Shown here piece by piece: positions 9,879 to 44,591 of a DNA stretch of 64,000 bases. Each line of letters opens with the position of its first letter. The stretch's first letter is position 1. The DNA comes from an uncultured Bacillota bacterium (lineage in GTDB: Bacteria; Bacillota_I; Bacilli_A; RFN20; CAG-288). The stretch spans positions 48,651-112,650 of the forward strand of contig CASDVP010000006.1 in the NCBI GenBank assembly GCA_949284445.1, in the 5' to 3' direction. The notes under the pieces were generated by a model. The model was not told the DNA's origin. It searched no databases and saw only the letters and a program-made list of their open reading frames with translations. Made by a program: the position numbers and the translations under genes.

Positions 9879-9920
9879 AGATGAACCTCCTATTGTCAGG
9901 CAAAAAAGCACATCTTAAAA

Positions 9921-25023: not shown

Positions 25024-25024
25024 A

Positions 25025-27734: not shown

Positions 27735-29873
27735 ATGAGAAAACCAGTATTACTAGCTACGGCTAAAAGCGAGAACATTATTGAAGTCACAATCGGTAAA
27801 GATTTCTATACTTCACCTAAGAAAGTGTTCACTCTTTATGAAGATGATAAGATCGTCTGTGATATTGAACCGGTCAGCAAGAGCGAATCACAATCGACAT
27901 TCATATACACTCTTCTATTAAATGATTTCACCTATGTTCCAGGTAAAAAGTATGAGATTAAAACCAGTGAAAATTACTTTATTCCACTGGATATCTCATT
28001 TTTGGCTGAGCAAGAAGAATTTGAAAAGAAATATCGTTTTGATGGTGAATTAGGTGCGATTTATCGACCGGATAAAACTATTTTCCGTGTCTTCTCACCT
28101 TTTGCGACGACGATGCTATTAAAAATACAGAGAAAAAACAGCGATAATCTCGAAATATATAAAATGATACCAAATCGTGAAAACGGTGTCTTTTCATTAG
28201 AGATCGAAGGTGATTTAGATGAAGCTAGTTATCTTTATACTCCGACTATTTTCGGTGAGATCAGAGATGTCGTTGATCCTTATAGCTATTCAGTCGGCAT
28301 CAATTCACGGATCGGATATGTCATCAATCCTGAAAAGATCAAAGCGATATCGACGCATGATGATAATCTACCACCCTTTTCAGATCCTTTGAAAGCCTTT
28401 ATATATGAATGTTCTGTTCGTGATATGACTTCTAAGACATCGATTCCTCATCGAGGTACTTTTTCAGCTCTTTCTCTTGATAATCAAAAGGATAAAGAAG
28501 GTAATCCTATCGGATTAGACTATATCTCTTCTTTAGGAATGACGCATGTCCAATTATTGCCTGTTTTAGATTTTCATACCATTGATGATGAAAGACCTGA
28601 TGAAAGCTACAATTGGGGATATGATCCTTACTTTTTCTTTGCTCCTGAAGGCTCTTATTCTTTAAATCCTAAAGATCCCTATTCGCGTGTCATGGAATTA
28701 AGAAATCTTATTGGTCAATTGCATGCTCATGGATTAAGAGTCGTTTTAGATGTTGTTTATAACCACGTCTTTTGTGTCGAATTCAATCCTTTAGCTGTTC
28801 TGGTTCCAAAGTATTATTTCCGCATCAATCATGACCATTCTTCTTCTAATGGTTCAGGCTGTGGAAACGATTTTGAATCAAGACATTATATGGCTAGAAA
28901 ACTCATCATCGATTCTTTGATGCACCTTTTAGATTTCTATGATGTCGATGGTTTTAGATTTGATCTGTTAGGCATCTTAGATGTCGATACGGTCAACAAA
29001 GCTTATCAAGCTGTCATCGATAAAAAGCCAGAAGCTATTATGTATGGTGAAGGTTGGGACTTACCGACTGCTTTACCCGGCGATAAAAAAGCTTCGATCT
29101 CTAACTCTAATCATCTTAAAGGCATCTCTTTCTTCAATGATCGTTTCCGTGATGTCGTCAAAGGTAGCACATCATCTTTATCAGTGAAGGGCTATTTATC
29201 TGGAGACACTAATTATATCGATGGCTTTAAGCACGTGTTTTTAGGTTCTTCTATCGCCTTAGCTTTTGCACCTTTATTCACTTCACCTACTCAATCCATC
29301 AATTATATCGAATGTCATGATAATCACACTTTATATGATAAACTCAAAAGCTGTTGCCATGATGAAACCGAAGAAGAGATTTTTAAACGTTTGAAGTTAT
29401 GTAATGCTGCTACTTGTTTAGCTAGCGGTATTCCTTTCTTCCACGCTGGTCAAGAAGTCGGTTTATCAAAAGATGGTTTAGGCAATACCTATAATGCTGG
29501 CGATGAAGTTAACGGATTTGATTATAAAACGGCTTATCATAGAAAAGATTTACTTTTATTTTTCAAAGATGTTATTTCGTTTAAAAAGAAGTTTTTTGAT
29601 TTGATTGATAATCTTAAGGATGTCAATAAGCATATCACATTTGAAAATTTAGACCATAATGCGATCAAGATCAATTATATTTATGATGATTATGAATTAT
29701 ATTTGATATTCAACCCGACAAAGCAGTCTTTCACTTATAATTTCGATGAGTATGTCAACTTAGTATTCACTGATGCTGGAAATGTTGAACACAACGACTT
29801 CTATATCCGTCTAGCTATTATCAACGGGTTATCACTGAATATCTTTTTGAAGAATAAGAGGACTCAAAGATGA
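27735..29873 (+). CDS. pulA: type I pullulanase (GH13)
   Basis: YNWGYDP, DVVYNH, DGFRFDL, YGEGW, YIECHDNHT catalytic motifs. Confidence 0.93.
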   Translation: MRKPVLLATAKSENIIEVTIGKDFYTSPKKVFTLYEDDKIVCDIEPVSKSESQSTFIYTLLLNDFTYVPGKKYEIKTSENYFIPLDISFLAEQEEFEKKYRFDGELGAIYRPDKTIFRVFSPFATTMLLKIQRKNSDNLEIYKMIPNRENGVFSLEIEGDLDEASYLYTPTIFGEIRDVVDPYSYSVGINSRIGYVINPEKIKAISTHDDNLPPFSDPLKAFIYECSVRDMTSKTSIPHRGTFSALSLDNQKDKEGNPIGLDYISSLGMTHVQLLPVLDFHTIDDERPDESYNWGYDPYFFFAPEGSYSLNPKDPYSRVMELRNLIGQLHAHGLRVVLDVVYNHVFCVEFNPLAVLVPKYYFRINHDHSSSNGSGCGNDFESRHYMARKLIIDSLMHLLDFYDVDGFRFDLLGILDVDTVNKAYQAVIDKKPEAIMYGEGWDLPTALPGDKKASISNSNHLKGISFFNDRFRDVVKGSTSSLSVKGYLSGDTNYIDGFKHVFLGSSIALAFAPLFTSPTQSINYIECHDNHTLYDKLKSCCHDETEEEIFKRLKLCNAATCLASGIPFFHAGQEVGLSKDGLGNTYNAGDEVNGFDYKTAYHRKDLLLFFKDVISFKKKFFDLIDNLKDVNKHITFENLDHNAIKINYIYDDYELYLIFNPTKQSFTYNFDEYVNLVFTDAGNVEHNDFYIRLAIINGLSLNIFLKNKRTQR

Positions 29874-30679
29874 TCAAATATATCAAATATGTATTAAAAG
29901 CTATTCCGACTTTAATCCATCGCTATCCGAAGATTCTGAAAATCGCTAAGCATCCTGAAAAATATGATATAAGAACTCGTTACGAAGCTTCTAGCAAATT
30001 GCTAAAAAGGATCAATGAAGTCTCTTTTCATGCTGAGTTCTTCATCAATAATCAAGAGAATATCCCTAGTGAACAATGCGTCTTTTATTCGAATCACACT
30101 TCTAATGGTGATCCGATCACTTTCATGAACATCATGGATAGACCGATCGCTTTTTTAGCTAAGAATGATGTCGCTGAGATGATCGTCGTCAAAACACTAG
30201 CTAAGATGATCGGTAGCAAATTCATCGACCGGATGGATCTGAGAAGTGAGATCAAAGTCTTTCAAGAGATCAATAAAGAATTAGCAGCTCATCCTGAACT
30301 CTCATTTGTTGTCTTTCCTGAAGGTACTAGAAGCAAGCGACCTGATTTTGTTCTAGGTTCTTTCCATCCCGGTTCTTTTAAGATAGCGACTAGAAGAGAT
30401 TTGCCAATCGTCCCTGTCGCTCTTTTCATGACCGATCGAATCTTATATCAAAAATATCATTACAAAAAATACCCGGTTCAGATCAGTTTCTTAAAACCGC
30501 TTTACCCTTCTGATTATGAAAATATGACTTCACAGGAGATCGCTGAGTATTGTCATCAAGCGATCAAAGCTGAACTCGAAGAGTTGAAGAAAAAAGATGC
30601 TGAATTAGTTCAGAGATTAAACGGATATTCTGATACAAAATTAAATCGTGTTTTATATCTTCCTAAACCCAAGGATTAG
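29870..30679 (+). CDS. plsC: 1-acyl-sn-glycerol-3-phosphate acyltransferase
   Basis: NHTSNGD (HxxxxD), FIDR, FPEGTRS. Confidence 0.9.
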   Translation: MIKYIKYVLKAIPTLIHRYPKILKIAKHPEKYDIRTRYEASSKLLKRINEVSFHAEFFINNQENIPSEQCVFYSNHTSNGDPITFMNIMDRPIAFLAKNDVAEMIVVKTLAKMIGSKFIDRMDLRSEIKVFQEINKELAAHPELSFVVFPEGTRSKRPDFVLGSFHPGSFKIATRRDLPIVPVALFMTDRILYQKYHYKKYPVQISFLKPLYPSDYENMTSQEIAEYCHQAIKAELEELKKKDAELVQRLNGYSDTKLNRVLYLPKPKD

Positions 30680-32262
30680 TTGAGTTTTTTGCGATCGATC
30701 TTACCGATATCAGTTCTTGGCAAAGATTTCGAGACAACTATTTTTTCTGGGATCGAATATTTGATCAGACGTTCTTTTAAATATCTCTGTATTTTTGAAA
30801 TGAGCATTTCTTTATCAGTCATATCGCTTTCAACATAGAGAGTGAAATAAGGGTGCTTGTCATCTTTGTGATAGATTGCCGCACATGACTTGACGCCTTC
30901 TACTTCACCAGCTAATTTTTCAATATCAGCTGGGAAGATATTATATCCAGCTATTTTATAGACGTCTTTAGCTCGGTTGATGAAGAAGAGAAAACCTTCT
31001 TCATCCAAGTATCCGATATCTCCGGTTTTCAACCATTTATTATTTTCAGAGTCGTAATAAAAAGGCTGTTTATCTTCTTCAACATTTAAATAACCGAGGC
31101 ATAGAGATGGTGAGGAGATCAAAATTTCACCTGTCTGATTCGGCTTTAAACCTTCTTCGTAAGAGACTTCTGGATCGACGATTTTCACTTTCACACCTTT
31201 TAGCGGTTTACCGACAGAACCGATTTTATTCTCTTTTAAGGTGTTGACGAAATTGACTGTCGCTGTTTCAGTGAGTCCATATCCTTCTAATAGGCGATTG
31301 ATAGAAGAAGCTTCTTCCATGCGTTTGTTAAATTCGGAAAACAGACGGGTTTCAGGCTTATCTGCTCCGATATAAGTAGCGATCAGATTTCTTAGCTTTT
31401 TGCCTGAAAAAGCCTTTCTAGCTAGAAGTTTATCAGTCAGATAAGGAATGGTTAATAAGACGTTGATCTTATTCTGTCTTATCTTTCTAACGATTTCGTT
31501 TCCATCATAAGAGATCATGAGTGCGCTAGCAGCATTATTTGATAATGGTGCATGGATTCCCATCGCTAGGCCGAAGCCATGGAAGATCGGCATAAGACCG
31601 ATCATCGAAAAACCTTCTGTCTCATGACATAAGATATCTTTGGATTGGCGGGTGACAAAATTGATCGCTTCATCATTGATGATGACGATCTTGCTTTTAC
31701 CGGTGGTACCGCCTGAGCGCAAGTAGAGACTCGGTTTTAATCCATCCTCATTTACGACGACCTTATCATCGGATTTCATTTTATATAAATATTTATTTTT
31801 ATCGATTGAAGAGAGCTCTTTTTTATACATCAAGTGAAAACCGATGCGAACGATTGGATTTAAATCCGGAACGGCGCTTATATAATAAGTTTTAATCTTT
31901 GTTCTCTTGATGATATCGAGATATTTTATAGCTAAGACATCTAAAACAATAAAGTGTGTGGCCTTGGTTTCTATGATCGATTCATATAAAACTTCACTCG
32001 GTAATAGTGGATGTAAGATAGAAGCGATAGCACCGATTTTAGAGAGAGCATAAAGAGTGATGATGGTTTCTGGTACATTAGGAGCCAGCAAAGTGACCAC
32101 GGTGTCTTTTTTAATCCCTAAAGAATGTAAAATGCTCGCCATTTTATCGATTCGATTGATGAATTCTGGGAAACGAATGGTTTTATCACGGAAATAGAGG
32201 GCGACGGATTTGCTGTTTTTATAGCGTGCAACAGCTTGATATAAAGTGCTTGATTCTCTCAT
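30676..32262 (-). CDS. AMP-binding long-chain acyl-CoA synthetase family protein
   Basis: SGGTTGKSK, EGYGLTET, TGDIGYLD, R.KD, GKIDRK. Start ATG 32262 overlaps the upstream stop (ATGA). Confidence 0.9.
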   Translation of the reverse strand: MRESSTLYQAVARYKNSKSVALYFRDKTIRFPEFINRIDKMASILHSLGIKKDTVVTLLAPNVPETIITLYALSKIGAIASILHPLLPSEVLYESIIETKATHFIVLDVLAIKYLDIIKRTKIKTYYISAVPDLNPIVRIGFHLMYKKELSSIDKNKYLYKMKSDDKVVVNEDGLKPSLYLRSGGTTGKSKIVIINDEAINFVTRQSKDILCHETEGFSMIGLMPIFHGFGLAMGIHAPLSNNAASALMISYDGNEIVRKIRQNKINVLLTIPYLTDKLLARKAFSGKKLRNLIATYIGADKPETRLFSEFNKRMEEASSINRLLEGYGLTETATVNFVNTLKENKIGSVGKPLKGVKVKIVDPEVSYEEGLKPNQTGEILISSPSLCLGYLNVEEDKQPFYYDSENNKWLKTGDIGYLDEEGFLFFINRAKDVYKIAGYNIFPADIEKLAGEVEGVKSCAAIYHKDDKHPYFTLYVESDMTDKEMLISKIQRYLKERLIKYSIPEKIVVSKSLPRTDIGKIDRKKLN

Positions 32263-33167
32263 AAATTGAATCCCATTGATAAAGACATAATACCTAAAAT
32301 AATGATTATTATAGGCTGATGTAAAACATAAATCCAAATAGTATGGGAGCCTATGAAGCCGATCGGTTTTAAAACCAGTTGATATTTTCCTGGCTTTAAA
32401 TATGAATATCGATGTTCTCTAAACAAAGCTTGACCGATAGCGATGCCGATAAAAATGACACCTGCAAAGGGGAAGATCGGCCACCAATCGATATAATTCA
32501 GCGATTTTCCTAATGCGGAATAGATGAAATCAAGAAATGTGAATTCATGCTTCAGATCATTTCCTAAATAAGCTGAAGTTGTAGGCCAAGAGAGCAAATG
32601 ATTATTGATTTTTATGCCTTGTCTTAAAAGCAAACCGGTGAAGAGGATTAAGACGCCGAGAGCTAATGGGATCAAAGGATGAATTTCTTTTTTGAAAACT
32701 TTTTTAGCTATCAATTCTAATAACGCGTAGACAAGGATTGAAAAAGCCATGATGTGGATGATACCCCAAGGGATGAACAAGTCCATTTTAAGAAAGTGAG
32801 ATAGTCCATAGCTTCCTAGTGAGATCAAAGAAGCTACAAGACAGAGCAAGAGGCTTCGACGGATATTGCTCCTTGTCAAACTGGTAGAGATTCCGCAAGC
32901 GAAAAGAAACATGCCAGCGAATAAAGGCACTAGGTAATCATGGATGACATCATTAGACATGATGGAACTACAAAATTCGATCAGTGATGCTAATTGCGGA
33001 TGATTGACGATATTAGTTTGAAAATTAGAGAAGATATTCGGCAATTCTGTGAAATCATAACAGAGATGAAAGAGGACTACTAAAAAAATCGGAAATCCTC
33101 TCAGCAAGTCGACTTCTAAGATACGCGATTTTTTAATCTTCTTTTTAGTGACTGTTAAGCTTTTCAT
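32259..33167 (-). CDS. DUF1624 / heparan-alpha-glucosaminide N-acetyltransferase-like membrane protein
   Basis: RILEVDLLRGF..LVVLFH, PLF..MFLFACGIS, WWPIFP, GSHTIWIYVLHQP. Confidence 0.85.
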   Translation of the reverse strand: MKSLTVTKKKIKKSRILEVDLLRGFPIFLVVLFHLCYDFTELPNIFSNFQTNIVNHPQLASLIEFCSSIMSNDVIHDYLVPLFAGMFLFACGISTSLTRSNIRRSLLLCLVASLISLGSYGLSHFLKMDLFIPWGIIHIMAFSILVYALLELIAKKVFKKEIHPLIPLALGVLILFTGLLLRQGIKINNHLLSWPTTSAYLGNDLKHEFTFLDFIYSALGKSLNYIDWWPIFPFAGVIFIGIAIGQALFREHRYSYLKPGKYQLVLKPIGFIGSHTIWIYVLHQPIIIIILGIMSLSMGFNL

Positions 33168-33174
33168 CTAGGGG

Positions 33175-33183
33175 ATTATATCA
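33175..33183 (-). promoter_or_regulatory. extended -10 promoter giving a probable leaderless mRNA
   Basis: TGATATAAT, then 7 nt, then ATG 33167; no SD. Confidence 0.65.
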
Positions 33184-33416
33184 CTTCAAATCAAAATTTA
33201 GGTAAAAAAGAAGTGAAAATGCTACCGCTGTACCGCTTTTTTCTACTTAAAATGAACATAGAAGGCGCTATCATCATGCCTACTTGAATAAAAAAATAAA
33301 GTTGTTTCTTAAAAAAGAATAGTCATTACTTGTTAAATATTTTTATTAATTATTGTATTAAAATAAGTAGCAAGTTATAATTTAATGCGGTAGTAATGTG
33401 AAAGGTTAATAATATC

Positions 33417-34889
33417 TTGGCTAGATTATTTGATAGAATTCCGGGAGATCTCTTCTCTCCACTCGCAAGAAAATATAAAGCGATTTATGCTTTCGCTTTA
33501 GTGTGCTTATATCATTGCATAAAATTGTATAAAACAGATATCAAAAGGAGCGATTTCGCTTCACTTTTAAGAAGTCAAGGCGAAGAGCTGATGGCTCTAT
33601 TCAATATAGATACAGATAAACTTGACGATAAAGATGAAAGCGAAGAAGTGACTGTTGATGATGCGGATAACGAATTGAACCAAAAGGTTTCCTATATCAT
33701 CCGTAAATTAGCTAACTGCGGTTGGTTCATCATCTCGAAAGATCCGAAAAAAAACAATGTCGAATATATTTATATACCGGCTTATTCGATTCAGATTTTG
33801 AAGATTTTAGATGAGATCACTTCTGATATCGGTTCTTATTTACCTTTAGTCCATCAGACCTATGCGGAATTGAAGATGGAAGATGAGAAAGAAGACGATT
33901 ACATGTATCGTTCTTTAATGAACGCGAGAACCAATGCAGATACGATTGAAATGTCAGTCACCCTATTAAGACAACAGATCTGTGTCTTCGGAAATCGTTT
34001 GACTTCAGTTTTAGATCCGAATGTCGCTTTAAAACAACACTTTGATGAATATCGTATCTCAATCTCTGATAAATACTATCACCCGATGAAAACCTTTGAT
34101 TCTTTAGGTCTTTATTCATTGCCGACGATCACGATACTTAACCGCTGGTTAAAGAGCGAAAGAATCATCTCTTTATTAGTCAAAGAGGCTAAAGCAGAGC
34201 CTCTCAATCAAAAGAAGGAAGAAGCGACTTTAGCTAGTGAGATCATCAAGACCATTCAAGAGATCATCGATATTTTCTCACGTCTCACCACCGCCTTTAA
34301 TGATATCGATGTCGCTAATGCAAACTATACTGAAGCTGTTCAAAGAAAGATCAATTATCTCTCAGCTTCTGATAAGACTACTAAAGGTAAGATCGATGCC
34401 ATCATCTTAGCGATGGCTAATGAGATTAAAAATAATCCAGCTCTGAGATACGAGGAGATGCCTATTTTAAATCGCGCCCATGAAACTTTGATCTTGAATA
34501 GACAAGGCTTCTTCGATTCGCAATCTTTGACGATGCCGTTTAAACGAAATCAAGCTGAAGAAGGCGAATTTTTGCCTTTGGATGATGAGTTCTACCCGGA
34601 AGAGCAGAGCGCGATTATGGATGAATTCATGAACAGACAGTTAACACGTTTTTCAGATTCAGCCATTTTAGAGTTTTTATCTTCCAATATGAATGGTAAA
34701 GATGAACTAGTCAATACTGATGTCGATCTGACAATACTAGATAATCTGGTTCTGTGGATCTTAGCTGTCATCAAAGCTAATTTAGGTGTTATACCTTATG
34801 AAGCTACTAAGCTCTCTGATCGCATCGAATATGCGAATTATTATATGCCGTTATATAAATTTACAAGAAAAAAGAATAATAAGAGGTAA
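33417..34889 (+). CDS. jetA: Wadjet JetA / MksF-like kleisin (DUF5716-like)
   Basis: N-terminal LFDRIPGDLFSPLA..Y..IYA..L pattern, GWF winged-helix segment; first gene before JetB/JetC. TTG start after AAAGG. Confidence 0.8.
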   Translation: MARLFDRIPGDLFSPLARKYKAIYAFALVCLYHCIKLYKTDIKRSDFASLLRSQGEELMALFNIDTDKLDDKDESEEVTVDDADNELNQKVSYIIRKLANCGWFIISKDPKKNNVEYIYIPAYSIQILKILDEITSDIGSYLPLVHQTYAELKMEDEKEDDYMYRSLMNARTNADTIEMSVTLLRQQICVFGNRLTSVLDPNVALKQHFDEYRISISDKYYHPMKTFDSLGLYSLPTITILNRWLKSERIISLLVKEAKAEPLNQKKEEATLASEIIKTIQEIIDIFSRLTTAFNDIDVANANYTEAVQRKINYLSASDKTTKGKIDAIILAMANEIKNNPALRYEEMPILNRAHETLILNRQGFFDSQSLTMPFKRNQAEEGEFLPLDDEFYPEEQSAIMDEFMNRQLTRFSDSAILEFLSSNMNGKDELVNTDVDLTILDNLVLWILAVIKANLGVIPYEATKLSDRIEYANYYMPLYKFTRKKNNKR

Positions 34890-34894
34890 CGAAG

Positions 34895-35641
34895 ATGTTT
34901 CAAGAAGAATATGATAAATTGACACGTGGAGAAAAGAGTCAGTTTTCTGAAGCGATCAACGAACTTCTCTACAAAGAGTTTATTTTAAGAAAAGCTTATG
35001 ATCGCAAAAGCCAGATGTTTAAAGCTGATCCGACCTATTTGTTCATCGAAAGACATTTTTCTTTGGTTGAAGAATACCTGTCATTCATCGATGTGACTCT
35101 GACTAAAGATGAAGATGACGGCGTCATTTTTATCGTCTCTGATATCGAGATGAATCATCTCCGTTTAGATATCGTCACCACTTTATTAGTCTATGCGCTT
35201 CGCTCTTTCTATGAATCAGCGATCAGCAAAGATCCGCAGGAAAGAAATGTTTTGATGAGTTCGAGCAATCTGATGTCTTTATTACAAGAGAGCGGCTTGT
35301 CTAATATCTCTAAGCGTTTGTCATTAGCGACGATCGCTTCTTCTTTGAGAACTCTTGATTCATTTAATATCATCACTAGATATAGCAATACATATGGTGA
35401 TCCGTCATATAAGTTTTACATTCTTCCGACGATCCGTTATGTCATCTCCACTGAAAAGATGAACGATCTCTATTCCTTCCTCACTCAGAAACCAGAAGAG
35501 AGCAATTCATCGATGCTTTATAACACTTTTAATGCTCCTAAGGAAGAAGAGGTTCAAAGCGATAGTGATGATGTCGCAACACCTGTGGAAACAAAGATGG
35601 GAGTGGACATCCCTGTCGATTTCAATGAGGGAGAAAAATAA
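34895..35641 (+). CDS. jetB: Wadjet JetB / MksE-like KITE (DUF4194-like)
   Basis: Size, position and motifs (Y.FIERHFSLVEEYLSFI, TLLVYALR.FYE, LRTLDSFNII). Confidence 0.82.
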   Translation: MFQEEYDKLTRGEKSQFSEAINELLYKEFILRKAYDRKSQMFKADPTYLFIERHFSLVEEYLSFIDVTLTKDEDDGVIFIVSDIEMNHLRLDIVTTLLVYALRSFYESAISKDPQERNVLMSSSNLMSLLQESGLSNISKRLSLATIASSLRTLDSFNIITRYSNTYGDPSYKFYILPTIRYVISTEKMNDLYSFLTQKPEESNSSMLYNTFNAPKEEEVQSDSDDVATPVETKMGVDIPVDFNEGEK

Positions 35642-35643
35642 TT

Positions 35644-38600
35644 ATGAAAAATCTTGTTAAACTCCGCTTGATCAATTGGCATTACTTCACCAACACCACT
35701 TGTGATATCAAAAATATCACCTATTTAACCGGTCCTAACGGCACTGGTAAATCAACCATCATTGATGCTTTACAGATTTTGATTTTAGGTTCGACAAGAC
35801 CTGAAAATTTCAATAAAGCCGCGAATGAAAAAGCCCGTTCAGGACGTACTTTGATCTCTTATTTAAGAGGTCAAACCGGTGTCACCGGTGATGGTCAAGT
35901 CATCAATTTGAGAAAAGGTAATTTCACATCCTATATCGCGATTGAAATCTATGATGATGTCGAAGATAAGACTTTTACTTTAGGCGTTGTTTTTGATGTC
36001 GATAGCTCTGATCAGATCGATAAACATTATTTTTACATAGCTTCGCCATTCTTAGAAAACAATTTTACTAATTCTGAGATGGAAAAAGATTCTAATCGCA
36101 TCAAACCCCTTCAATACAAGGAATTGTCTAGCTATGTGAGATCTAACTTTAAGCCTTCTCAGTATCGTTTCTTTGATACTGATACCGATTATAAAGGCTT
36201 CATCAAAGAAGCATATGGCAACTTGCCTGATAAGTATTTTGAACTTTTCAAAAAAGCGGTCTCTTTCGCTCCTATCTCTGATATCTCTTCCTTTATCACC
36301 GAATACATCTGCGATGTCGATAAACAGATCAACATCGAGCCGATGCAAAAGAACATCGAACAATATAAGATTTTGGAATTAGAAGCTAAACGCTTGAGAA
36401 ATAAAGTCGATAGCTTGAATAAGATCTCAGAAGTCTTCAATTCTTATCAAACCCATCAGCGCTATCTGAACACGCTCAATTATGTCAACACCAGAGTCAG
36501 CTATGAGGAAGCCAAAAAGAGATTAGATGACTTCATGGAGAAGTTAAAGAAAGATAATGATCGTTTATCATATATCTCTAATCAATTATTGGTCTGTGAT
36601 TCTCAGATCGCTGAGCTGAACGCTGACTTAGAATCTTATAACGCTAAAAAAGTTCAATCCAAAAATTATTCCTTGACCGAACGTTTATCGATGAAGAAAG
36701 ATACCATCACTTCTAAGATCACTTCGATTCAGATGTCAGCCTCACAAGTCATGACTAAACTGAATAATTATGTTCATGATTATCAGAGCGCCTGCCAAAA
36801 CTTTTATACATATTATTCCCAATTCGATAGTTCACGTCTAGGAAAAAATATCAAAGGTGCTTTCGATGAGCTGTTAGAACTCTGTCAAGATATCACCAGT
36901 GAAGCGACTTCTCTCATTCAAAGCATCGATGATGATAGCGTCGATTTTGAAGCCATCAAAGTCTTTAGAAATGATATGGATCTGTTGAGAAATCAAGCCA
37001 TCTCTTTAAGACAACAATTGAATAATGAACTCTATGTCATATCTGAAGAATTACAGCAATTACAATCGGATCTATCTGCAGTCAATTCTGGAAGAAAACC
37101 ATTTGATAAATTAGGTCCTAATTACATGGCGATCAAATCATCTTTAGAAAGAGCCTTACAAGATCGTCATAGCGATGCATATGTCAATATCTATTGCGAT
37201 CTAGTCGATGTCAACGATCCGGAATGGACTTTAGCCTTAGAAGCCGTGCTTTTTAATCAAAAGTTCAATTTCTTTGTCAATCCTAAGTATTATGAGGAAG
37301 CTAATCGCATCTTGAAAGAATTAGCGGATGAATATAACTATTATCGTGTGTCTTTAGTCGATACCGATCGCCTTTTAGCTAATCATATAACTGCTAATGA
37401 AGATTCTATCGCTGAACTCATCACCACCTCTGATTCCGGTGCGAGAGCCTATACTGATTATCTTTTAGGTCGCATCAAAAAGTGCCGATCTTTTGAAGAA
37501 GCCCGCGCTTCAGGGTCTGGTCTTTTATCTGATTGCACCGGTTATCGCGGATATGCGACTTGGTATCTGAATAAGGCTCATGCGAGAGTGTTCTATCTCG
37601 GAACTCAAGTCTCTTCTTCTACCAAAGCTATTTCTGCTAAAGATTATCAAGATATGCAGGCTAAATATAATCTGTTCACCGAAGCTTTGAACAAGCTTCA
37701 AAACCTCTTAGCTCTGCCGGTTATGTCTGAGGCTGAATGTCAAAGCTATCAAGCTGATATCGATAAGACTTCTGAGATCAGAAATCTTCAGAACGATCTT
37801 TCCAATGTCGATTCTCAGATGCATGATGCGGCTTTAGGAGACATGAATGAACTCGATAAAAAGATCTCTGCTATCAAAGAAGATATCGCTTCGATCGAAA
37901 AAGAACGCGCAGACTTATTGACAGAGAGAGGTTCTTTGCTCAACGAAGTCAATCGTTTAAACAGTGAAGAGATCCCCTTAGCGACTTCCTCAGTCGAAAA
38001 CTTTAGAGCTTCATTGAACAACTTTGATCCTCAGCTTTCAAATCACGATTACGAGCCGTATTTCAATATGTTGATCGATGAGCAGCACATGACCTTAGCT
38101 CAGATCAGAAATGCAGCTACTAAAGAATATATTCAAACTTCTAATAAGCAGAAATATGAAAGGGAGAATCTCATCCGTTTGCGTTCTGATTATTGCGCAG
38201 CTCATAAACTTGGCTATGCGACAACCAATTTAGACACTAACGATGAATTCGATGCTGAATTAAAGAATATTTCGACGGTCATGCTTCCTGATTACGAGGA
38301 AAAGATCAAAAAAGCACATGATGATTCCATCAAAGAATTCAAAGATGATTTCGTCTATAAACTCCGCACTTCAATCGAGACAGTCTATCAACAGATCGAG
38401 GAGCTCAATCAGGCTTTAGTCGATTCTCACTTCGGACGTGATACCTATCAATTTAAAGTCTCTCCTTCCAAAGATTATCTTGAATACTACAATATGATCA
38501 TGGATCCTCTGCTTTTGAAAGCTGGTGATGCTGAAAGCTTATTCATGGAAAAATATCGCTCCACTATGGATGATCTCTTCAATCTGATCTCTTCTTCCAC

Positions 38601-39111
38601 TAGCGCTTCTGGCGAACAATTAGAACAGATCACTAAGAACATCGACACTTTCACCAGATACACGACTTATATCGTCTTCGATCTCTTCGTCTATCGTGGA
38701 ACTGATAGCGTCGCTCAACCGATCTCTTTAGGACGTTCATTCAGATCGCAATCCGGTGGTGAGACTCAGACTCCTTTCTATATCGCTATCTTAGCTTCCT
38801 TCTCAGCTTTATGCCGTGCTAAAAATAGCAAGGATAACAACACCTTAAGACTAGTCATCTTTGATGAAGCTTTCTCAAAAATGGATGCTGCTAGAATCAA
38901 AGAATCCGCTAACCTTTTAAGAAGCTTTGGCTTACAGGCTATCATCTCTTCACCTAGTGAAAAACTAGCTGAATTAGTCAGTTATGTAGATCTGATCTTA
39001 GTCGCTAACCACAATGATAAACGTAAGCATTCAAGCGTCGATGTATATGAAGAAAAGAAGAAAAAGGTGAGCGTTGAAGAATTCGTCGAAAATAAAGCTC
39101 TTAAAGAATGA
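35644..39111 (+). CDS. jetC: Wadjet JetC / MksB SMC-family ATPase
   Basis: LINWHYF, Walker A TGPNGTGKSTIIDALQ, long coiled coils, signature SGGETQTPFY, Walker B/D-loop LVIFDEAFSKMD. Confidence 0.92.
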   Translation: MKNLVKLRLINWHYFTNTTCDIKNITYLTGPNGTGKSTIIDALQILILGSTRPENFNKAANEKARSGRTLISYLRGQTGVTGDGQVINLRKGNFTSYIAIEIYDDVEDKTFTLGVVFDVDSSDQIDKHYFYIASPFLENNFTNSEMEKDSNRIKPLQYKELSSYVRSNFKPSQYRFFDTDTDYKGFIKEAYGNLPDKYFELFKKAVSFAPISDISSFITEYICDVDKQINIEPMQKNIEQYKILELEAKRLRNKVDSLNKISEVFNSYQTHQRYLNTLNYVNTRVSYEEAKKRLDDFMEKLKKDNDRLSYISNQLLVCDSQIAELNADLESYNAKKVQSKNYSLTERLSMKKDTITSKITSIQMSASQVMTKLNNYVHDYQSACQNFYTYYSQFDSSRLGKNIKGAFDELLELCQDITSEATSLIQSIDDDSVDFEAIKVFRNDMDLLRNQAISLRQQLNNELYVISEELQQLQSDLSAVNSGRKPFDKLGPNYMAIKSSLERALQDRHSDAYVNIYCDLVDVNDPEWTLALEAVLFNQKFNFFVNPKYYEEANRILKELADEYNYYRVSLVDTDRLLANHITANEDSIAELITTSDSGARAYTDYLLGRIKKCRSFEEARASGSGLLSDCTGYRGYATWYLNKAHARVFYLGTQVSSSTKAISAKDYQDMQAKYNLFTEALNKLQNLLALPVMSEAECQSYQADIDKTSEIRNLQNDLSNVDSQMHDAALGDMNELDKKISAIKEDIASIEKERADLLTERGSLLNEVNRLNSEEIPLATSSVENFRASLNNFDPQLSNHDYEPYFNMLIDEQHMTLAQIRNAATKEYIQTSNKQKYERENLIRLRSDYCAAHKLGYATTNLDTNDEFDAELKNISTVMLPDYEEKIKKAHDDSIKEFKDDFVYKLRTSIETVYQQIEELNQALVDSHFGRDTYQFKVSPSKDYLEYYNMIMDPLLLKAGDAESLFMEKYRSTMDDLFNLISSSTSASGEQLEQITKNIDTFTRYTTYIVFDLFVYRGTDSVAQPISLGRSFRSQSGGETQTPFYIAILASFSALCRAKNSKDNNTLRLVIFDEAFSKMDAARIKESANLLRSFGLQAIISSPSEKLAELVSYVDLILVANHNDKRKHSSVDVYEEKKKKVSVEEFVENKALKE

Positions 39112-39121
39112 AATATGAGAT

Positions 39122-39150
39122 AAGGACTGCATCAATTAGCAGTCTTTTTT
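39122..39150 (+). terminator. intrinsic terminator closing jetABC
   Basis: AAGGACTGC-N8-GCAGTCTTTTTT starting 11 nt after the jetC stop. Confidence 0.85.
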
Positions 39151-39305
39151 GATGCGTAATAATAAAAGATTAGTATTTCTATCTAAGCTTGACTCTTTCT
39201 TATGAAGTCATCAAGGATGACAAATAGCAAAAATAAACAGATTTGATTTATAGTATTGTAAAATGTCGTGACTTATAGAAAAATGTGCAAAAAATCTAGA
39301 CATAT

Positions 39306-39342
39306 ATCATTAAATGTAATAAAATGCACTGCATTTAATGAT
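39306..39342. promoter_or_regulatory. 11-bp inverted repeat, candidate operator
   Basis: ATCATTAAATG-N15-CATTTAATGAT upstream of -10 TATAAT (39374-39379). Confidence 0.45.
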
Positions 39343-39460
39343 TTAATGATTAATTCTTTTGTTAAAGACATATTATAATATTTTTTAGTCACAAAGATTT
39401 AAAACTTTATTCGTCAGAAAAAATTTTACGTCTTTGTCATCTTAATCATAGGAGGGGAAA

Positions 39461-39892
39461 ATGAAGTCTATTTTAGAGCGCTTTAAAAAATGTAATGTTG
39501 GCGCTTACTTCGTCTTTTTTACGATGCTTTGCTCACTGCTCTCTTTCATCTTTTGTCTCGTCGGTATCGCTTCCGGTTATCAATCTTGGCTCACCTTTGT
39601 CTGCTTTATTTTGATTTTAGTCGCTGATGTTGTTTTGTTCGTTTTTAACAAGCTAGAATTCGCACCAGCTGTCAACGCTATTCTTTCAGCTTTAGGAATC
39701 GGATTCTTCATCTATGCTGGCTATAACTATGTGGCTACCGTTATCACTGGTATCGATATTGAAAATTTTTCAGCTGATTTTATCCTTTCTTGTGTCTTTT
39801 ATGTTTTGGCTTATGCTTCTAGTGTCGCTTCTATCTTTTTACCATTATATAAGAAGACTCAAACTGAAAGCACAGATAAGGTAACTGAATAG
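39461..39892 (+). CDS. uncharacterised 4-TM protein preceding GH3 (paralogue of 51207..51674)
   Basis: SD AGGAGG; four TM helices; shared motifs with the 155-aa paralogue. Confidence 0.8.
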   Translation: MKSILERFKKCNVGAYFVFFTMLCSLLSFIFCLVGIASGYQSWLTFVCFILILVADVVLFVFNKLEFAPAVNAILSALGIGFFIYAGYNYVATVITGIDIENFSADFILSCVFYVLAYASSVASIFLPLYKKTQTESTDKVTE

Positions 39893-39905
39893 GAGTTAAT
39901 CATTT

Positions 39906-42900
39906 ATGAGAAAAAGATATACTGCTAGTAAAATTTGTTTGACCGCTTTTTCATCTCTTTTAGGCATCTCTGTTTTAGCAACTGTCATCTGCAATGAAAA
40001 TGTCACGGCGATCAACACTGCTATAGGTACTTCCTCTTGGAAAAAGGTTCAAGTAGAAGAAAGCGATGAAAATACCGATACTGAGTATTACAAATCAGAT
40101 TATGAACATCTAGACGATGTGATCGCCGATACTGATAAACTTATCGAAGAGGAAATGGAAGAAGGCGCCGTTCTTATCAAGAACGAGAATAACGCACTCC
40201 CGTTAGCTCAGAATGCAAAAGTTACAACAGTTGGTTTGGCTTCAGCTGTTTCTAGTTTATCCTCATCTGGTTCTGTTGCCGGTTCCAGTGCTACTGGTCG
40301 TGAAGTCACTTTAAAGGCGGGCTTAGAGCATGCTGGTTTTACAGTCAATCCGACAGCTTGGGACTATTATAATGATGCGGATGTTCAATCTACTTATGGC
40401 ACTGTTAGAAATGGTATGAGCGCTCCTGGACCATTGATCCAAAAAGTTGGTGAAGTTCCGTGGGATGTCGCTAATGCTGCTTTCGGTTCATCTATCAGCC
40501 AATACGGCGATGCTGCTATCATGAACATCACTCGCGTCTCTGGAGAAGGCAATAAAGATGTCAACCGTTCTGGTACTACTAATACTCCTAATGGTGATGC
40601 TTTGACTTTATCTAATGAAGAGATGGGTGTTTTAAGAGGCTTAAAGGCTTTGAAAGATGCTGGCACAGTCAAAAAGATCATCGTCTTATTAAACTGCACT
40701 GCTTCTATCGATTTAGCTTTCTTAAATGACGCCCAGTATGGAATCGATGCTTGCTTACAGATTCAAACTGTTGGAACCACTGGTTTTAACGGCGTCGGTG
40801 ACTTGTTAGCTGGAAATGCTAATCCTTCCGGAAAGAGCAACGATACTTTGTGGTATCATAACGATCAAAATCCGACTCTTACCAATCAATTAGGCTATGA
40901 GTTTTTAAATCCTGAAAATTTAGCTTTACACACTTTGACAAATGGTCTCGGTGGCTATGAGGCTCACTATGTCGTCTATCAAGAAGGCATTTATTTAGGA
41001 TATCGTTATACTGAGACTCGTTATTCTGATTATGTGACTAATAGAGCCAACACTGGTGACTTCGATTATGCAACTACTGTTTCAGTTCCTTTCGGATATG
41101 GCTTATCTTACACTGATTTCTCTTATTCTAATTTTAAAGTGAGCAAAACTAGTGATGGCGATTATCAAGTCTCTGTCGATGTTAAAAACGATGGTAAGGT
41201 AGCTGGTAAGGACGTAGTTGAAGTCTTCTTACAAAAGCCTTATACCGAATACAACGTTGAAAATGGTATCGAAGCTAGTGCAGTCGAATTAGTCGGATAT
41301 AAGAAGACACCTTTAATCGATCCAGGCGATACTGAAAACATCACATTGATCGTCGATGATAGACAATTCGCTTCTTATGATGCTAATACTTCTAAAACTT
41401 ATGTTTTAACTCCAGGCGATTATTATTTGGGCATCGGTAATGGCGCTCATGATGCTGTCAATAACATCTTAGCTGCTCAAGGTCATACCCCTTCTAATAC
41501 TTCTGATCGTATGGATGCTGAAGGTGATGGTGATTTAGCTACTGTCGCTTTGACTCAAAAGAATCTTGATAACACCACTTATTCAAAATCTGAAGCTACT
41601 GGTAAAGAGATCACCAATCTCTTCGATAATTCTGACTTGAATAAATATGCTGAAACCAAAGAGAAATCACCTGTCACTTATATAACTAGAAACAACTGGC
41701 AAGGAACTGTTGTCTTAGATTCTCTTGATAATAATGATAGTTATACTAAGGTGACTATGACTTCCAAGATGCTTGAGGATTTCCGAAAAGGTTATACCGA
41801 AAGCGAACTCAAGAAGGATAACGTCAAATATCCTACCTATGGTGCCGATAACGGATTATCATTAATCAGCTTAAGACAAGATGCTGATGGTAATGATATC
41901 CCTTACGATGCTGATATTTGGGATACTTTCTTAGATCAGCTCACTTGGGATGATACAGTCCACCTTCTCTCTAATGGTATGAGATCTACTGCTGGTATCG
42001 AAGGCGTTATCGGTAAACCGGCAACCCTCGATCACAACGGTCCTTTAGGTGTCACTGAATTATTCGCTACCAATGAAAATGGTTTAGCTTATCAAAAAGG
42101 TGAAGATCCAACAGCTAGACCTTCTACTTTCCCTGCCGCTGGTGTTTTAGCTTCCACCATGAATTCTGAATTGATCGATAGAGTCGGTAAGATGTATGGT
42201 GAAAATTGCCTCTGGGCTGGTTATAAAGGAATTTATGGACCAGCTATGAATACACACCGTTCTCAATATTCTTCTCGTAATGCTGAATACTATTCTGAAG
42301 ACGGTTTCTTAGCCGGTAAGACTGCTGCTAGTCAAGTCGTTGGAATTCAATCAAAAGGTATCTATGCTTACATCAAACACTTCGCCTTAAACGATCAAGA
42401 GACTAATCGTTATGGTCTTTCTACTTGGCTCAATGAACAAAGCTTCCGTGAAATCTATTTAGAAGCTTTCCAAATCGCTATTGAAGAGGGCGATGCTCAT
42501 GCTATGATGAGTTCTTATAACCGTGTCGGCACTTCTGTCTCTGCTGCTACTTCTAATCTTGTCACCGATTGGTTGCGTGGTGAAGAAGGCTTTGATGGCT
42601 TCGTTGTCACTGATATGTATATCGAACAAGCATACGGAACTTTAACTTTCTATACCGGCTTGTTAAAAATGCCTTATGCTGTTTATTGCGGTAATGATTT
42701 AGTCGATGGTGCTAATGTCGATCATCAATTCGATGATTATAGACAAGGCTATGGTGAATTAGCTTGGAGAATGAGAGAATCTGCTAAACGTATTCTTTAT
42801 ACCGTCTGTCATTCAGCTGCCATGAACGGTTGGGACTCTAACACTAGATTAGTCCATGTTCTCACTCCTTACCAGATCGCATTGATCGCTGTTGATAGTA

Positions 42901-42986
42901 CCTTAGGTGTATTAACTGCTGCTTCTTTAGGTTTCTTCGGATTCGAATATTACGTCAAGAACATCAAGAAAAAGAAAGAAGATTAA
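39906..42986 (+). CDS. membrane-anchored GH3 glycosidase with permuted domain order (C-domain, Fn3, TIM barrel)
   Basis: EGAVLIKNENNALPL, YQEGIYLGYRY, PFGYGLSYTDF, RNAEYYSED, KHFALND, MSSYN, VVTD nucleophile. Hydrophobic helices at both termini. Confidence 0.93.
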   Translation: MRKRYTASKICLTAFSSLLGISVLATVICNENVTAINTAIGTSSWKKVQVEESDENTDTEYYKSDYEHLDDVIADTDKLIEEEMEEGAVLIKNENNALPLAQNAKVTTVGLASAVSSLSSSGSVAGSSATGREVTLKAGLEHAGFTVNPTAWDYYNDADVQSTYGTVRNGMSAPGPLIQKVGEVPWDVANAAFGSSISQYGDAAIMNITRVSGEGNKDVNRSGTTNTPNGDALTLSNEEMGVLRGLKALKDAGTVKKIIVLLNCTASIDLAFLNDAQYGIDACLQIQTVGTTGFNGVGDLLAGNANPSGKSNDTLWYHNDQNPTLTNQLGYEFLNPENLALHTLTNGLGGYEAHYVVYQEGIYLGYRYTETRYSDYVTNRANTGDFDYATTVSVPFGYGLSYTDFSYSNFKVSKTSDGDYQVSVDVKNDGKVAGKDVVEVFLQKPYTEYNVENGIEASAVELVGYKKTPLIDPGDTENITLIVDDRQFASYDANTSKTYVLTPGDYYLGIGNGAHDAVNNILAAQGHTPSNTSDRMDAEGDGDLATVALTQKNLDNTTYSKSEATGKEITNLFDNSDLNKYAETKEKSPVTYITRNNWQGTVVLDSLDNNDSYTKVTMTSKMLEDFRKGYTESELKKDNVKYPTYGADNGLSLISLRQDADGNDIPYDADIWDTFLDQLTWDDTVHLLSNGMRSTAGIEGVIGKPATLDHNGPLGVTELFATNENGLAYQKGEDPTARPSTFPAAGVLASTMNSELIDRVGKMYGENCLWAGYKGIYGPAMNTHRSQYSSRNAEYYSEDGFLAGKTAASQVVGIQSKGIYAYIKHFALNDQETNRYGLSTWLNEQSFREIYLEAFQIAIEEGDAHAMMSSYNRVGTSVSAATSNLVTDWLRGEEGFDGFVVTDMYIEQAYGTLTFYTGLLKMPYAVYCGNDLVDGANVDHQFDDYRQGYGELAWRMRESAKRILYTVCHSAAMNGWDSNTRLVHVLTPYQIALIAVDSTLGVLTAASLGFFGFEYYVKNIKKKKED

Positions 42987-43002
42987 TCATCAGAAGTAAA
43001 AT

Positions 43003-43037
43003 AAAAGGATGTGGTCGCTTATGATCACATCCTTTTT
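43003..43037. terminator. intrinsic terminator after GH3, possibly bidirectional
   Basis: AAAAGGATGTGGTC-GCTTAT-GATCACATCCTTTTT. Confidence 0.85.
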
Positions 43038-43444
43038 GTATTTTGTCAGATATTTTTTCTTATTCCTTGAGTTTTTTGTTGTATTTATTTGTTAATAATA
43101 TTGAAGAAAGAACCATTAAGACAATGTTTAAAAGAATACAACTGAGAATTCCTAAAAAAGTCAAATTAGCGATTGATAAATTGACAAAATGGTTTATGAC
43201 AGAACAAATGATTATTGCAAAGACTAAACTAGAAGACTGATTCTTTGACGCATACAAATAAAAAGCAAAAATAGGCACTGCATTTTTATATACAAGCGTA
43301 ATTATAACTACATTGTACAGACGACTCCTTTTCAGTGCCTAATTACAAAAACAAAGAATTATATTCAGCTCAATAATGTAAAAAACTATACAAGTTAAGA
43401 ATTATTCTTTTTTCGAAAAATAAAAGGGTGTATAATATTATCAT

Positions 43445-43458
43445 TGAAAGCGTTTACA
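43445..43458 (+). promoter_or_regulatory. cre (CcpA/LacI-family) site in the glgCDA leader
   Basis: TGAAAGCGTTTACA matches TGWAANCGNTNWCA; lies between -10 TATAAT and SD GGAGG. Confidence 0.75.
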
Positions 43459-43470
43459 CAGGAGGCTATC

Positions 43471-44577: not shown

Positions 44578-44591
44578 GGAGGTAAACTACA

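What the first reader, a model, noticed from the sequence alone, without database searches (positions are those of the whole stretch)
33417..39150. Wadjet/Mks SMC complex without its nuclease: jetABC closed by a terminator, no jetD
Seen: intact jetA-jetB-jetC with their own promoter and a strong terminator 11 nt after jetC. The flanks are a DUF1624 gene and a GH3 module, with no Toprim/DUF2220 gene, mobile element or other defence gene. Ile codons are ATC-dominated like the housekeeping genes. Established: Wadjet plasmid cleavage needs the JetD/MksG Toprim nuclease, and nuclease-less MksBEF in Pseudomonas aeruginosa acts in chromosome segregation. Inference: a domesticated Wadjet serving as the housekeeping condensin of this lineage (possibly replacing Smc-ScpAB), or one using an unlinked or different effector.
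Basis: partly seen in the sequence, partly recalled or inferred. Interest (0 to 1): 0.7.

Follow-up and report, generated by a model that had tools for sequence, protein, structure and literature searches.

The report
Nuclease-less Wadjet (JetABC) fixed in gut Bacilli
This is an intact three-gene SMC motor of Wadjet ancestry that has lost its DNA-cutting partner and is inherited as a fixed chromosomal gene cluster across a whole lineage of uncultured gut bacteria; it is a clear natural case of a defence system turned resident gene set, but this kind of nuclease-less system is already known and one member of this clade is already catalogued.

Summary
Window 33417-39111 encodes intact, tightly packed type I jetA-jetB-jetC, followed 11 nt later by a hairpin plus T-run. 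No jetD, mobile element or other defence gene occurs in the window or in about 17 kb beyond it.

Comparison with 72 related loci shows a monophyletic JetD-less clade in uncultured gut Bacilli (order RFN20, e.g. Ca. Enterosoma, CAG:288). jetABC sits at one fixed site inside the glycogen gene cluster (glgB-plsC ... jetABC ... glgCDA). It co-diverges with its neighbours (rho about 0.9), has host codon usage, and has dN/dS of about 0.02, like the glg genes. All 7 loci sampled by GlgD alone carried it. The nearest outgroups carry jetD overlapping jetC.

This is a vertically inherited, selected, nuclease-less Wadjet. It most likely works as an MksBEF/MukBEF-like loop-extruding condensin rather than a plasmid cutter.

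It is not new in kind. Loss of JetD across the Wadjet group is published, and that paper's operon table lists CAG:288 (my L058) as "FEB". Whether the system replaces Smc-ScpAB, or uses an unlinked effector, could not be tested here.

The parts
33168..33416 (+). AT-rich 249-nt spacer between the divergent HGSNAT gene and jetA. It must hold the jetABC promoter. A GAAAGG ribosome-binding site lies 11 nt before the TTG start.
   Evidence: Sequence read. Promoter consensus scan not above chance. The divergent orientation of the upstream gene implies a promoter here (inference).
33417..34889 (+). jetA: kleisin subunit, 490 aa, TTG start
   Evidence: Pfam JetA PF18982 7.6e-60. PADLOC JetA1 3.8e-83, covering residues 3-488.
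34895..35641 (+). jetB: KITE subunit, 248 aa, with a variable acidic C-terminal tail
   Evidence: Pfam DUF4194 5e-18. PADLOC JetB1 1.5e-63. Alignment.
35644..39111 (+). jetC: SMC-family ATPase, 1155 aa, with intact Walker A, signature and Walker B motifs and a hinge
   Evidence: PADLOC JetC1 5e-290. Pfam AAA_29, SbcC_Walker_B, SMC_hinge. Invariant motifs. The only solved-structure relatives by sequence are JetC chains 8as8, 9qxt and 8dk2.
39122..39150 (+). Intrinsic-terminator-like hairpin (AAGGACTGC / GCAGTCTTT, 8-nt loop) plus T-run, 11 nt after the jetC stop
   Evidence: -13.7 kcal/mol, z = -2.6. Comparable hairpins follow jetC in 28 of 69 clade loci.
27735..30679 (+). Context, upstream synteny anchors: glgB (27735-29873) and plsC-like acyltransferase (29870-30679)
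   Evidence: Conserved upstream of jetABC in 36 of 65 clade loci.
30676..33167 (-). Context: AMP-binding ligase (30676-32337) and HGSNAT_cat/DUF1624 acyltransferase (32259-33167), divergent from jetA
   Evidence: Present next to jetA in 32 of 65 clade loci.
39461..42986 (+). Context: a lineage-specific insert between jetC and glgC, made of a 143-aa membrane protein and a GH3 glycosidase. Found only in the closest relatives.
   Evidence: found only in the window, L006 and L036.
43444..47116 (+). Context, downstream synteny anchors: glgC, glgD, glgA
   Evidence: Downstream of jetC in 45 of 65 clade loci. Directly adjacent (30-390 nt, no ORF) in at least 22.

Best explanation
The locus encodes a complete JetA (kleisin), JetB (KITE) and JetC (SMC ATPase) motor of type I Wadjet ancestry that lacks the JetD Toprim nuclease.

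The three genes entered the chromosome between glgB-plsC and glgCDA in an ancestor of a large clade of uncultured, reduced-genome gut Bacilli (GTDB order RFN20 and relatives). jetD was lost once, at the base of that clade. The cluster has since been inherited vertically under strong purifying selection.

Established biochemistry shows that JetABC alone loads on DNA and extrudes loops using ATP, while cleavage needs JetD. The complex here therefore most likely acts as a non-cutting loop extruder on the host chromosome. That would make it an MksBEF/MukBEF-like condensin helping chromosome folding and segregation, not a plasmid-cutting defence.

Shown here: gene content, absence of jetD nearby, fixed synteny, monophyly, selection and host-like composition. 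Inferred: the cellular role.
For: Identity of the three genes.

JetD: confirmed immediately after jetC in 14 of 15 outgroup loci. No JetD-like sequence, not even a fragment, in the window or within 10 kb of jetC in L001-L070. None among the genes called in L166-L172.

Synteny: the block (FtsK) M16 GlgB PlsC [AMP-ligase, HGSNAT] JetABC GlgCDA recurs across 65 species representatives, with JetC identity from 95% down to 34%.

Co-divergence: JetC identity tracks GlgC, GlgD and GlgA, Spearman 0.88-0.90.

Monophyly: the JetD-less clade separates from the outgroups in 100 of 100 NJ bootstraps.

Selection: dN/dS is 0.022, 0.030 and 0.023 for JetA, JetB and JetC. GlgC/D/A are 0.019-0.027, and PlsC, AMP-ligase, HGSNAT and GH3 are 0.06-0.12.

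Composition: host-like codon usage and GC.

Prevalence: 7 of 7 loci picked by GlgD identity alone (45-76%) carry jetABC upstream of glgC.

No conserved substitute fourth gene. No mobile or defence genes in the window. The closest plasmid-borne JetC is 29.5% identical.

Against: No functional data exist; the lineage is uncultured.

Only about 80 kb of this genome, and +/-10 kb in relatives, could be read, so an unlinked jetD or another effector is not excluded.

The JetB N-terminal peptide is the region that binds JetD in type I systems. Here it has the same length as in JetD-linked relatives and is well conserved in the JetD-less clade. That could mean it still binds a partner.

dS against the closest distinct species is about 1-1.5, near saturation, so the dN/dS values are approximate.

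The clade was first defined by a JetC search, so prevalence across all of RFN20 is not known. The GlgC-based metagenome sample was largely off-target.
Confidence: 0.6

Rival explanations
1. It is still an anti-plasmid Wadjet, and its nuclease (JetD or a non-homologous effector) is encoded elsewhere in the genome. JetABC senses small circular DNA by loop extrusion and recruits the unlinked effector.
For: The JetB N-terminal peptide, the JetD-docking region in type I systems, is retained and conserved in the clade. Only a small part of each genome was visible.
Against: In every JetD-bearing relative, jetD overlaps the jetC stop. Keeping an unlinked partner across a clade this divergent (JetC identity down to 34%) would be unusual. 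No JetD-like sequence occurs in 1.6 Mb of clade loci. No conserved neighbouring candidate exists. The published survey lists a clade member as a nuclease-less 'FEB' operon; that survey checked the genes flanking nuclease-less operons by structure prediction.
Confidence: 0.18
2. It is a nuclease-independent defence or plasmid-control system. JetABC would compact, silence or mis-segregate small circular DNA without cutting it, in the manner of Smc5/6 on episomes.
For: The Wadjet ancestry and the intact motor. SMC-based silencing of extrachromosomal DNA is an established concept (PMC10586767).
Against: Defence genes are usually patchy and fast-evolving. Here the genes are fixed, syntenic and as constrained as the glycogen enzymes. 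No such activity has been shown for any JetABC lacking JetD.
Confidence: 0.15
3. It is a decaying remnant of a Wadjet system, or an artefact of assembly or binning.
For: None specific. L068 shows a split jetC.
Against: The L068 split is a 10-N scaffold gap, not a mutation. All other evaluable loci have full-length jetABC. dN/dS is about 0.02. The same arrangement appears in more than 70 independent assemblies from many studies.
Confidence: 0.02

Closest known systems
Type I Wadjet / JetABCD (E. coli GF4-3, P. aeruginosa PA14; MksBEFG of C. glutamicum; EptABCD of M. smegmatis)
   Same: JetA, JetB and JetC match the type I PADLOC models (JetC1 5e-290). The gene order is A-B-C and the genes are tightly coupled. 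The only solved-structure relatives of JetC by sequence are JetC chains.
   Different: There is no JetD Toprim nuclease in the operon or nearby, so plasmid cleavage as described for JetABCD is not possible from this locus alone. The locus is fixed, syntenic and vertically inherited rather than patchy or mobile.
MksBEF of Pseudomonas aeruginosa (also MksB of mycobacteria): nuclease-less Wadjet-group condensins
   Same: A three-gene kleisin/KITE/SMC operon without MksG/JetD. It is chromosomal, and the presumed origin is loss of JetD (PMC10586767). Published operon tables list this clade's CAG:288 locus in the same 'FEB' category.
   Different: It lies in a different phylum (Bacillota, order RFN20). 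By sequence it is still plainly type I Wadjet, with JetD-bearing Clostridia as nearest relatives. It is embedded in the glycogen gene cluster. Its function and its relationship to Smc-ScpAB are untested here, whereas P. aeruginosa has both MksBEF and Smc.
MukBEF of Enterobacteria
   Same: A Wadjet-group member that lacks the nuclease, has the same F-E-B gene order and is a lineage-wide vertically inherited core system (PMC7617805).
   Different: The Pfam MukB N-terminal match is below threshold (21.9 against a cut-off of 23). There is no evidence that Smc-ScpAB has been replaced. The partners MatP and topoisomerase IV were not examined.

Membership tests
Wadjet type I (JetABCD) | JetA kleisin (DUF5716 / PF18982) | tested here: met
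   Pfam 7.6e-60; PADLOC JetA1 3.8e-83
Wadjet type I (JetABCD) | JetB KITE subunit (DUF4194) | tested here: met
   Pfam 5e-18; PADLOC JetB1 1.5e-63
Wadjet type I (JetABCD) | JetC SMC-like ATPase with intact ATPase motifs and a hinge | tested here: met
   PADLOC JetC1 5e-290; Walker A, signature and Walker B invariant; SMC_hinge hit
Wadjet type I (JetABCD) | JetD Toprim/DUF2220 nuclease in the operon | tested here: not met
   The JetD profile found nothing in the six-frame translation of the window or L001-L070, while it detected JetD in 14 of 15 outgroup loci. Nothing in the +/-10 kb window extensions. The rest of the genome was not visible.
Wadjet type I (JetABCD) | Restriction or cleavage of small circular plasmids | not testable with these tools
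   Needs an experiment; the lineage is uncultured
Nuclease-less Wadjet-group condensins (MksBEF-like, 'FEB' operons) | Kleisin-KITE-SMC operon with no MksG/JetD next to it | tested here: met
   Clade member CAG:288 (L058, FR898162.1) is listed as 'FEB' in Data S1 of PMC7617805.
Nuclease-less Wadjet-group condensins (MksBEF-like, 'FEB' operons) | Stable chromosomal, vertically inherited locus rather than a mobile defence island | tested here: met
   Synteny in 65+7 loci, co-divergence, monophyly, dN/dS, host codon usage
Nuclease-less Wadjet-group condensins (MksBEF-like, 'FEB' operons) | Role in chromosome folding or segregation | not testable with these tools
   Needs Hi-C, segregation or complementation assays
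Sole condensin replacing Smc-ScpAB (MukBEF-type takeover) | Absence of smc, scpA and scpB from the same genomes | not testable with these tools
No smc, scpAB, rnc or ftsY in about 80 kb around the locus or in 1.6 Mb of clade loci, which says little about whole genomes. No literature data found.
MukBEF sensu stricto | MukB-type SMC subunit | tested here: not met
   Pfam MukB N-terminal 21.9 bits, below the cut-off of 23. PDB sequence hits are JetC chains only.
Smc-ScpAB | Canonical Smc with ScpA kleisin and ScpB | tested here: not met
   SMC_N 34.4 bits, below the cut-off of 40. The partner genes are JetA and JetB, not ScpA and ScpB.

The most novel reading that the evidence does not exclude
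JetABC has replaced Smc-ScpAB as the only condensin across RFN20. That would be a second, independent MukBEF-style takeover, this time in wall-less gut Firmicutes. It would be caught at a stage where the complex is still recognisably a type I Wadjet by sequence and its JetD-bearing sister systems are still identifiable.
Probability: 0.15. Interest if true: 0.85.

Novelty: new member of a known kind. Interest (0 to 1): 0.45.

Why it matters
The SMC field currently hypothesises that MukBEF and MksBEF arose when Wadjet defence systems lost their nuclease and were taken over for chromosome maintenance. This clade is an unusually clean natural example:
- a single inferred loss of jetD;
- a fixed insertion site inside the glycogen operon;
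- constraint comparable to the neighbouring glycogen enzymes across a clade in which JetC identity falls to 34%;
- close JetD-bearing relatives available for comparison.

It offers matched JetABC sets, with and without JetD, for asking what changes when a plasmid-cutting SMC becomes a resident chromosomal one. If Smc-ScpAB proved absent from these genomes, it would be the first condensin replacement known to me outside the gamma-proteobacteria. Practically, defence-system annotators should not count these loci as functional Wadjet.

Tried and rejected
1. JetB 'IFDR' motif test for a lost JetD interface. Neither the JetD-less nor the JetD-linked Firmicute JetBs show a literal IFDR, and their N-terminal lengths are equal. 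JetB alone, and a JetB profile, failed to reach the solved JetB chains by sequence. The test was uninformative.\n\n2. Unbiased prevalence via a GlgC-anchored scan of JGI metagenomes. Only L087 was clearly in-clade and evaluable, and it has jetABC. I replaced this with GlgD-anchored look-ups, which gave 7 of 7.\n\n3. Search for a substitute effector between jetC and glgC. The inserts are heterogeneous: comFA/comFC-like genes, GGDEF, radical-SAM/viperin-like, a PD-(D/E)XK fragment and GH3. The only recurrent family is an unannotated membrane protein that always abuts glgC and is absent from the window's subclade. Rejected as a JetD replacement.\n\n4. Smc-ScpAB and unlinked JetD. Window extensions, a motif scan of all clade loci for rnc, ftsY, smc and parB, and RFN20 genomics papers and one supplement gave nothing either way. 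I ran no further search on an Smc query. Only the 120 best hits are listed, and those would be close relatives of whatever query I could supply, not RFN20 proteins.\n\n5. Consensus promoter scan. Not above chance.\n\n6. Pseudogene reading of L068. The split jetC is a scaffold gap of 10 N.
Full report
**What is in the window.** Three plus-strand ORFs lie at 33417-34889, 34895-35641 and 35644-39111, separated by 5 and 2 nt.
- Pfam identifies them as JetA (PF18982, 7.6e-60), a DUF4194 protein, and an SMC-like ATPase (AAA_29, SbcC_Walker_B, SMC_hinge).
- The PADLOC defence models assign all three to type I Wadjet: JetA1 3.8e-83, JetB1 1.5e-63 and JetC1 5e-290, each over nearly its full length.
- Walker A (GPNGTGKST), the SGGE signature and Walker B (FDEAF) are invariant in an alignment with 18 relatives.
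- By sequence, the only solved structures related to JetC are JetC chains of E. coli GF4-3 and P. aeruginosa. MukB and Smc are not matched.

**Terminator, promoter and flanks.**
- The jetC stop codon ends at 39111. A hairpin starts at 39122, with a 9-pair stem, an 8-nt loop and a T6 run. It folds at -13.7 kcal/mol in a 56-nt context, z = -2.6. The generic scan missed it.
- Promoter consensus matches are no more frequent than in shuffled sequence. The upstream gene is divergent across a 249-nt AT-rich spacer, so jetABC must have its own promoter there.

**No jetD, no mobile or defence context.**
- I confirmed real JetD proteins (JetD_C, DUF3322) in distant relatives and built a profile from nine of them.
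- I searched that profile against all six-frame fragments of the window and of 85 loci. It found JetD directly after jetC in 14 of 15 outgroup loci.
- It found nothing, not even a fragment, in the window or in L001-L070.
- Every other window ORF of at least 120 aa is either housekeeping/metabolic or has no Pfam hit. The identified ones include aminoacyl-tRNA synthetases, tsaBDE, recX, ftsK, M16 peptidases, glycogen enzymes, GH3 and hexuronate catabolism. No integrase, transposase, phage or defence gene is present, and there are no tRNA genes.
- Extending about 8-10 kb beyond each window end added only ABC transporters, adhE and a GH2 enzyme.
- Codon usage and GC content of jetABC match the host genes. 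ATC is 74% of Ile codons against 64 +/- 13%, and the RSCU correlation is 0.92 against 0.90-0.94 for other long genes.

**Which organism.**
- The exact JetC occurs on 7 metagenome contigs, always in the same neighbourhood.
- A scan of one genome per species returned 362 relatives, of which the best 80 were kept. Ranks 1-65 are almost all uncultured 'Bacilli/Bacillales/Firmicutes bacterium' MAGs. They include Ca. Enterosoma, UBA7642, Clostridium sp. CAG:288 and CAG:568, Firmicutes bacterium CAG:449 and Ca. Scatoplasma.
- Ca. Enterosoma is GTDB genus UBA7642, order RFN20, family CAG-288 (PMC8035907).
- RFN20 is an uncultured, reduced-genome gut lineage related to Mycoplasmatales. [quoted passage not shown]
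- RFN20 reads TGA as a stop codon (PMC7301438).

**A fixed, vertically inherited locus.**
- Across the 65 clade loci the block (FtsK) M16 GlgB PlsC [AMP-ligase, HGSNAT] JetA JetB JetC GlgC GlgD GlgA recurs, while JetC identity falls from 95% to 34%.
- None of these neighbours occurs in the JetD-bearing outgroup loci (Oscillospiraceae, Pelotomaculum, Formimonas, Moorella, Cohnella).
- In at least 22 loci glgC follows jetC after only 30-390 nt with no ORF.
- Several non-clade Firmicute loci show glgB next to glgCDA. jetABC therefore appears to have been inserted into the glycogen operon once.
- JetC identity correlates with that of GlgC, GlgD and GlgA (Spearman 0.88-0.90). Its mean identity (about 56%) equals GlgA/GlgD (59%) and exceeds PlsC, HGSNAT and the M16 peptidase.
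- In a neighbour-joining tree of 85 JetC proteins, the JetD-less clade separates from the outgroups in 100 of 100 bootstraps.
- Against the closest distinct species (L006), dN/dS is 0.022, 0.030 and 0.023 for JetA, JetB and JetC. The glg genes are 0.019-0.027, and PlsC, AMP-ligase, HGSNAT and GH3 are 0.06-0.12. dS is about 1-1.5, so these values are approximate.
- The only locus with a split jetC (L068) has a 10-N scaffold gap at that point.

**An unbiased prevalence check.**
- The loci above were found through JetC. I therefore searched with the window's GlgD and looked up the context of seven hits.
- These hits were chosen for long contigs with no obvious JetC counterpart, at GlgD identities of 76, 73, 65, 62, 59, 45 and 45%.
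- All seven have jetA-jetB-jetC immediately upstream of glgC, and none has a JetD.
- An earlier attempt with GlgC against JGI metagenomes was mostly off-target. Its one clear in-clade locus, L087, also carries jetABC.

**Is there a substitute effector?**
- I clustered every ORF lying between jetC and glgC and scanned representatives with Pfam and PADLOC.
- The inserts differ between lineages: comFA/comFC-like genes, a GGDEF protein, a radical-SAM/viperin-like gene, a PD-(D/E)XK fragment, and GH3 plus the 143-aa protein in the window's closest relatives.
- The only recurrent family (20 members, 302-398 aa) is a predicted membrane protein with no family match. It always sits directly before glgC and is absent from the window's subclade.
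- Nothing qualifies as a conserved fourth subunit.
- Terminator-like hairpins follow jetC within about 30 nt in 28 of 69 loci.
- The nearest plasmid-borne JetC is 29.5% identical.

**How it most likely works.**
- From the literature, JetABC is an ATP-driven loop-extruding motor that senses small circular DNA, and cleavage requires JetD (PMC10586767; bioRxiv 10.1101/2023.11.03.565488).
- A JetD-less complex that is fixed, syntenic and as constrained as core metabolic enzymes is best read as a non-cutting SMC motor working on the host chromosome. [quoted passage not shown]
- I put this at about 0.6.
- The evolutionary part (single loss, vertical inheritance, selection) is shown. The cellular role is inferred.
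- The rivals are an unlinked JetD or other effector (about 0.18), a nuclease-independent anti-plasmid role (about 0.15), and a decaying relic or artefact (about 0.02).
- One observation favours the first rival. The JetB N-terminal peptide docks JetD in type I systems. In the JetD-less clade it keeps its length and is well conserved. I could not map the published IFDR motif onto these sequences.

**What could not be settled.**
- Whether these genomes also encode Smc-ScpAB, and whether a jetD exists elsewhere, needs whole-genome scans.
- The RFN20 genomics papers, and one held supplement, say nothing about condensins.
Smc-ScpAB is kept even in minimal Mollicutes (my own knowledge), and MksBEF coexists with Smc in Pseudomonas and mycobacteria. 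On that basis I give replacement about 0.15.

**Novelty.** The kind is known.
- Burmann et al. [quoted passage not shown] - For operons without an MksG hit, they checked the flanking genes by structure prediction.
- Their operon table lists Clostridium sp. CAG:288, contig FR898162.1 (60,302 bp), as 'FEB' with mksB at 31092-34484. That is my locus L058. The table also has FEB operons from 'Erysipelotrichaceae/Erysipelotrichales bacterium' and 'Tenericutes bacterium' genomes.
- A 2025 preprint spells out the domestication idea.
- I found no description of the clade-wide picture established here: one insertion site inside the glycogen operon, conservation across about 70 species-level genomes of RFN20 and relatives, glg-like purifying selection, and JetD-bearing Clostridia as nearest relatives.
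- I therefore file it as a new, well-documented member of a known kind, of moderate interest.

Noticed in passing
window 27735-47116; L006-L070: jetABC, together with plsC and in some lineages an AMP-ligase and an HGSNAT acyltransferase, splits the glycogen cluster into glgB and glgC-glgD-glgA. Several non-clade Firmicute loci keep glgB next to glgCDA. In L063-L065 glgC starts 30-43 nt after jetC with no hairpin, so co-transcription of jetABC with glgCDA is possible there.
   Followed up: partly
L038-L069 and L171 (e.g. L039:13495-14520, L171:7770-8801): A 20-member family of 302-398 aa predicted membrane proteins with no Pfam or PADLOC match. It always sits directly upstream of glgC in the more divergent subclades, sometimes right after jetC. 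It is absent from the window's subclade. Function unknown.
   Followed up: partly
L054:13406-13870 and equivalents in L055, L056, L057, L059: A conserved ORF of about 154-158 aa starts 0-68 nt after the jetC stop in one subclade. It has no family match.
   Followed up: partly
window 39906-42986 and 51671-54925: Two large GH3 paralogues with a permuted domain order: Glyco_hydro_3_C, then Fn3-like, then the GH3 N-terminal domain. Each is preceded by a small ORF without family hits (143 aa at 39461-39892; 155 aa at 51207-51674). The first module is an insert between jetC and glgC seen only in the window, L006 and L036.
   Followed up: no
L077 (Ca. Avoscillospira avistercoris, DVJJ01000061.1): This is the one outgroup locus whose jetABC has no JetD after it (a minus-strand 449-aa ORF follows). 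It looks like an independent nuclease loss in Oscillospiraceae. The published table also lists FEB operons in Butyrivibrio crossotus CAG:259 and Bacteroides pectinophilus CAG:437.
   Followed up: no
L033:14302-15519: A radical-SAM protein matching the PADLOC prokaryotic viperin model (pVip, 7.9e-15) lies 747 nt downstream of jetC in one clade member.
   Followed up: no
window 34895-35641 and JetB of L008, L009: JetB carries a variable, acidic, low-complexity C-terminal tail. It is 248 aa in the window and up to 291 aa in Ca. Enterosoma relatives, against about 213-220 aa in most clade members.
   Followed up: no
window 21847-25023: A full-length FtsK/SpoIIIE DNA translocase (alpha, motor and gamma domains) lies 8 kb upstream of jetA. 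It belongs to the conserved synteny block in several relatives (L015, L019, L021, L023, L062).
   Followed up: no
window 9024-9911, 10409-12004, 24956-26161, 49969-51210: ORFs of 295, 531, 401 and 413 aa with no Pfam match at E <= 1e-3 or 1e-4. The 401-aa ORF sits next to an M16 peptidase and may be its divergent partner.
   Followed up: no
L166-L170, L172: In many clade genomes the block rpmF, rsmB-like, rlmN, prpC, prkC, rsgA, rpe and rpmB lies next to jetABC-glgCDA. From my own knowledge, the equivalent block in B. subtilis lies some 15-20 kb from rnc-smc-ftsY. This is only a curiosity.
   Followed up: no
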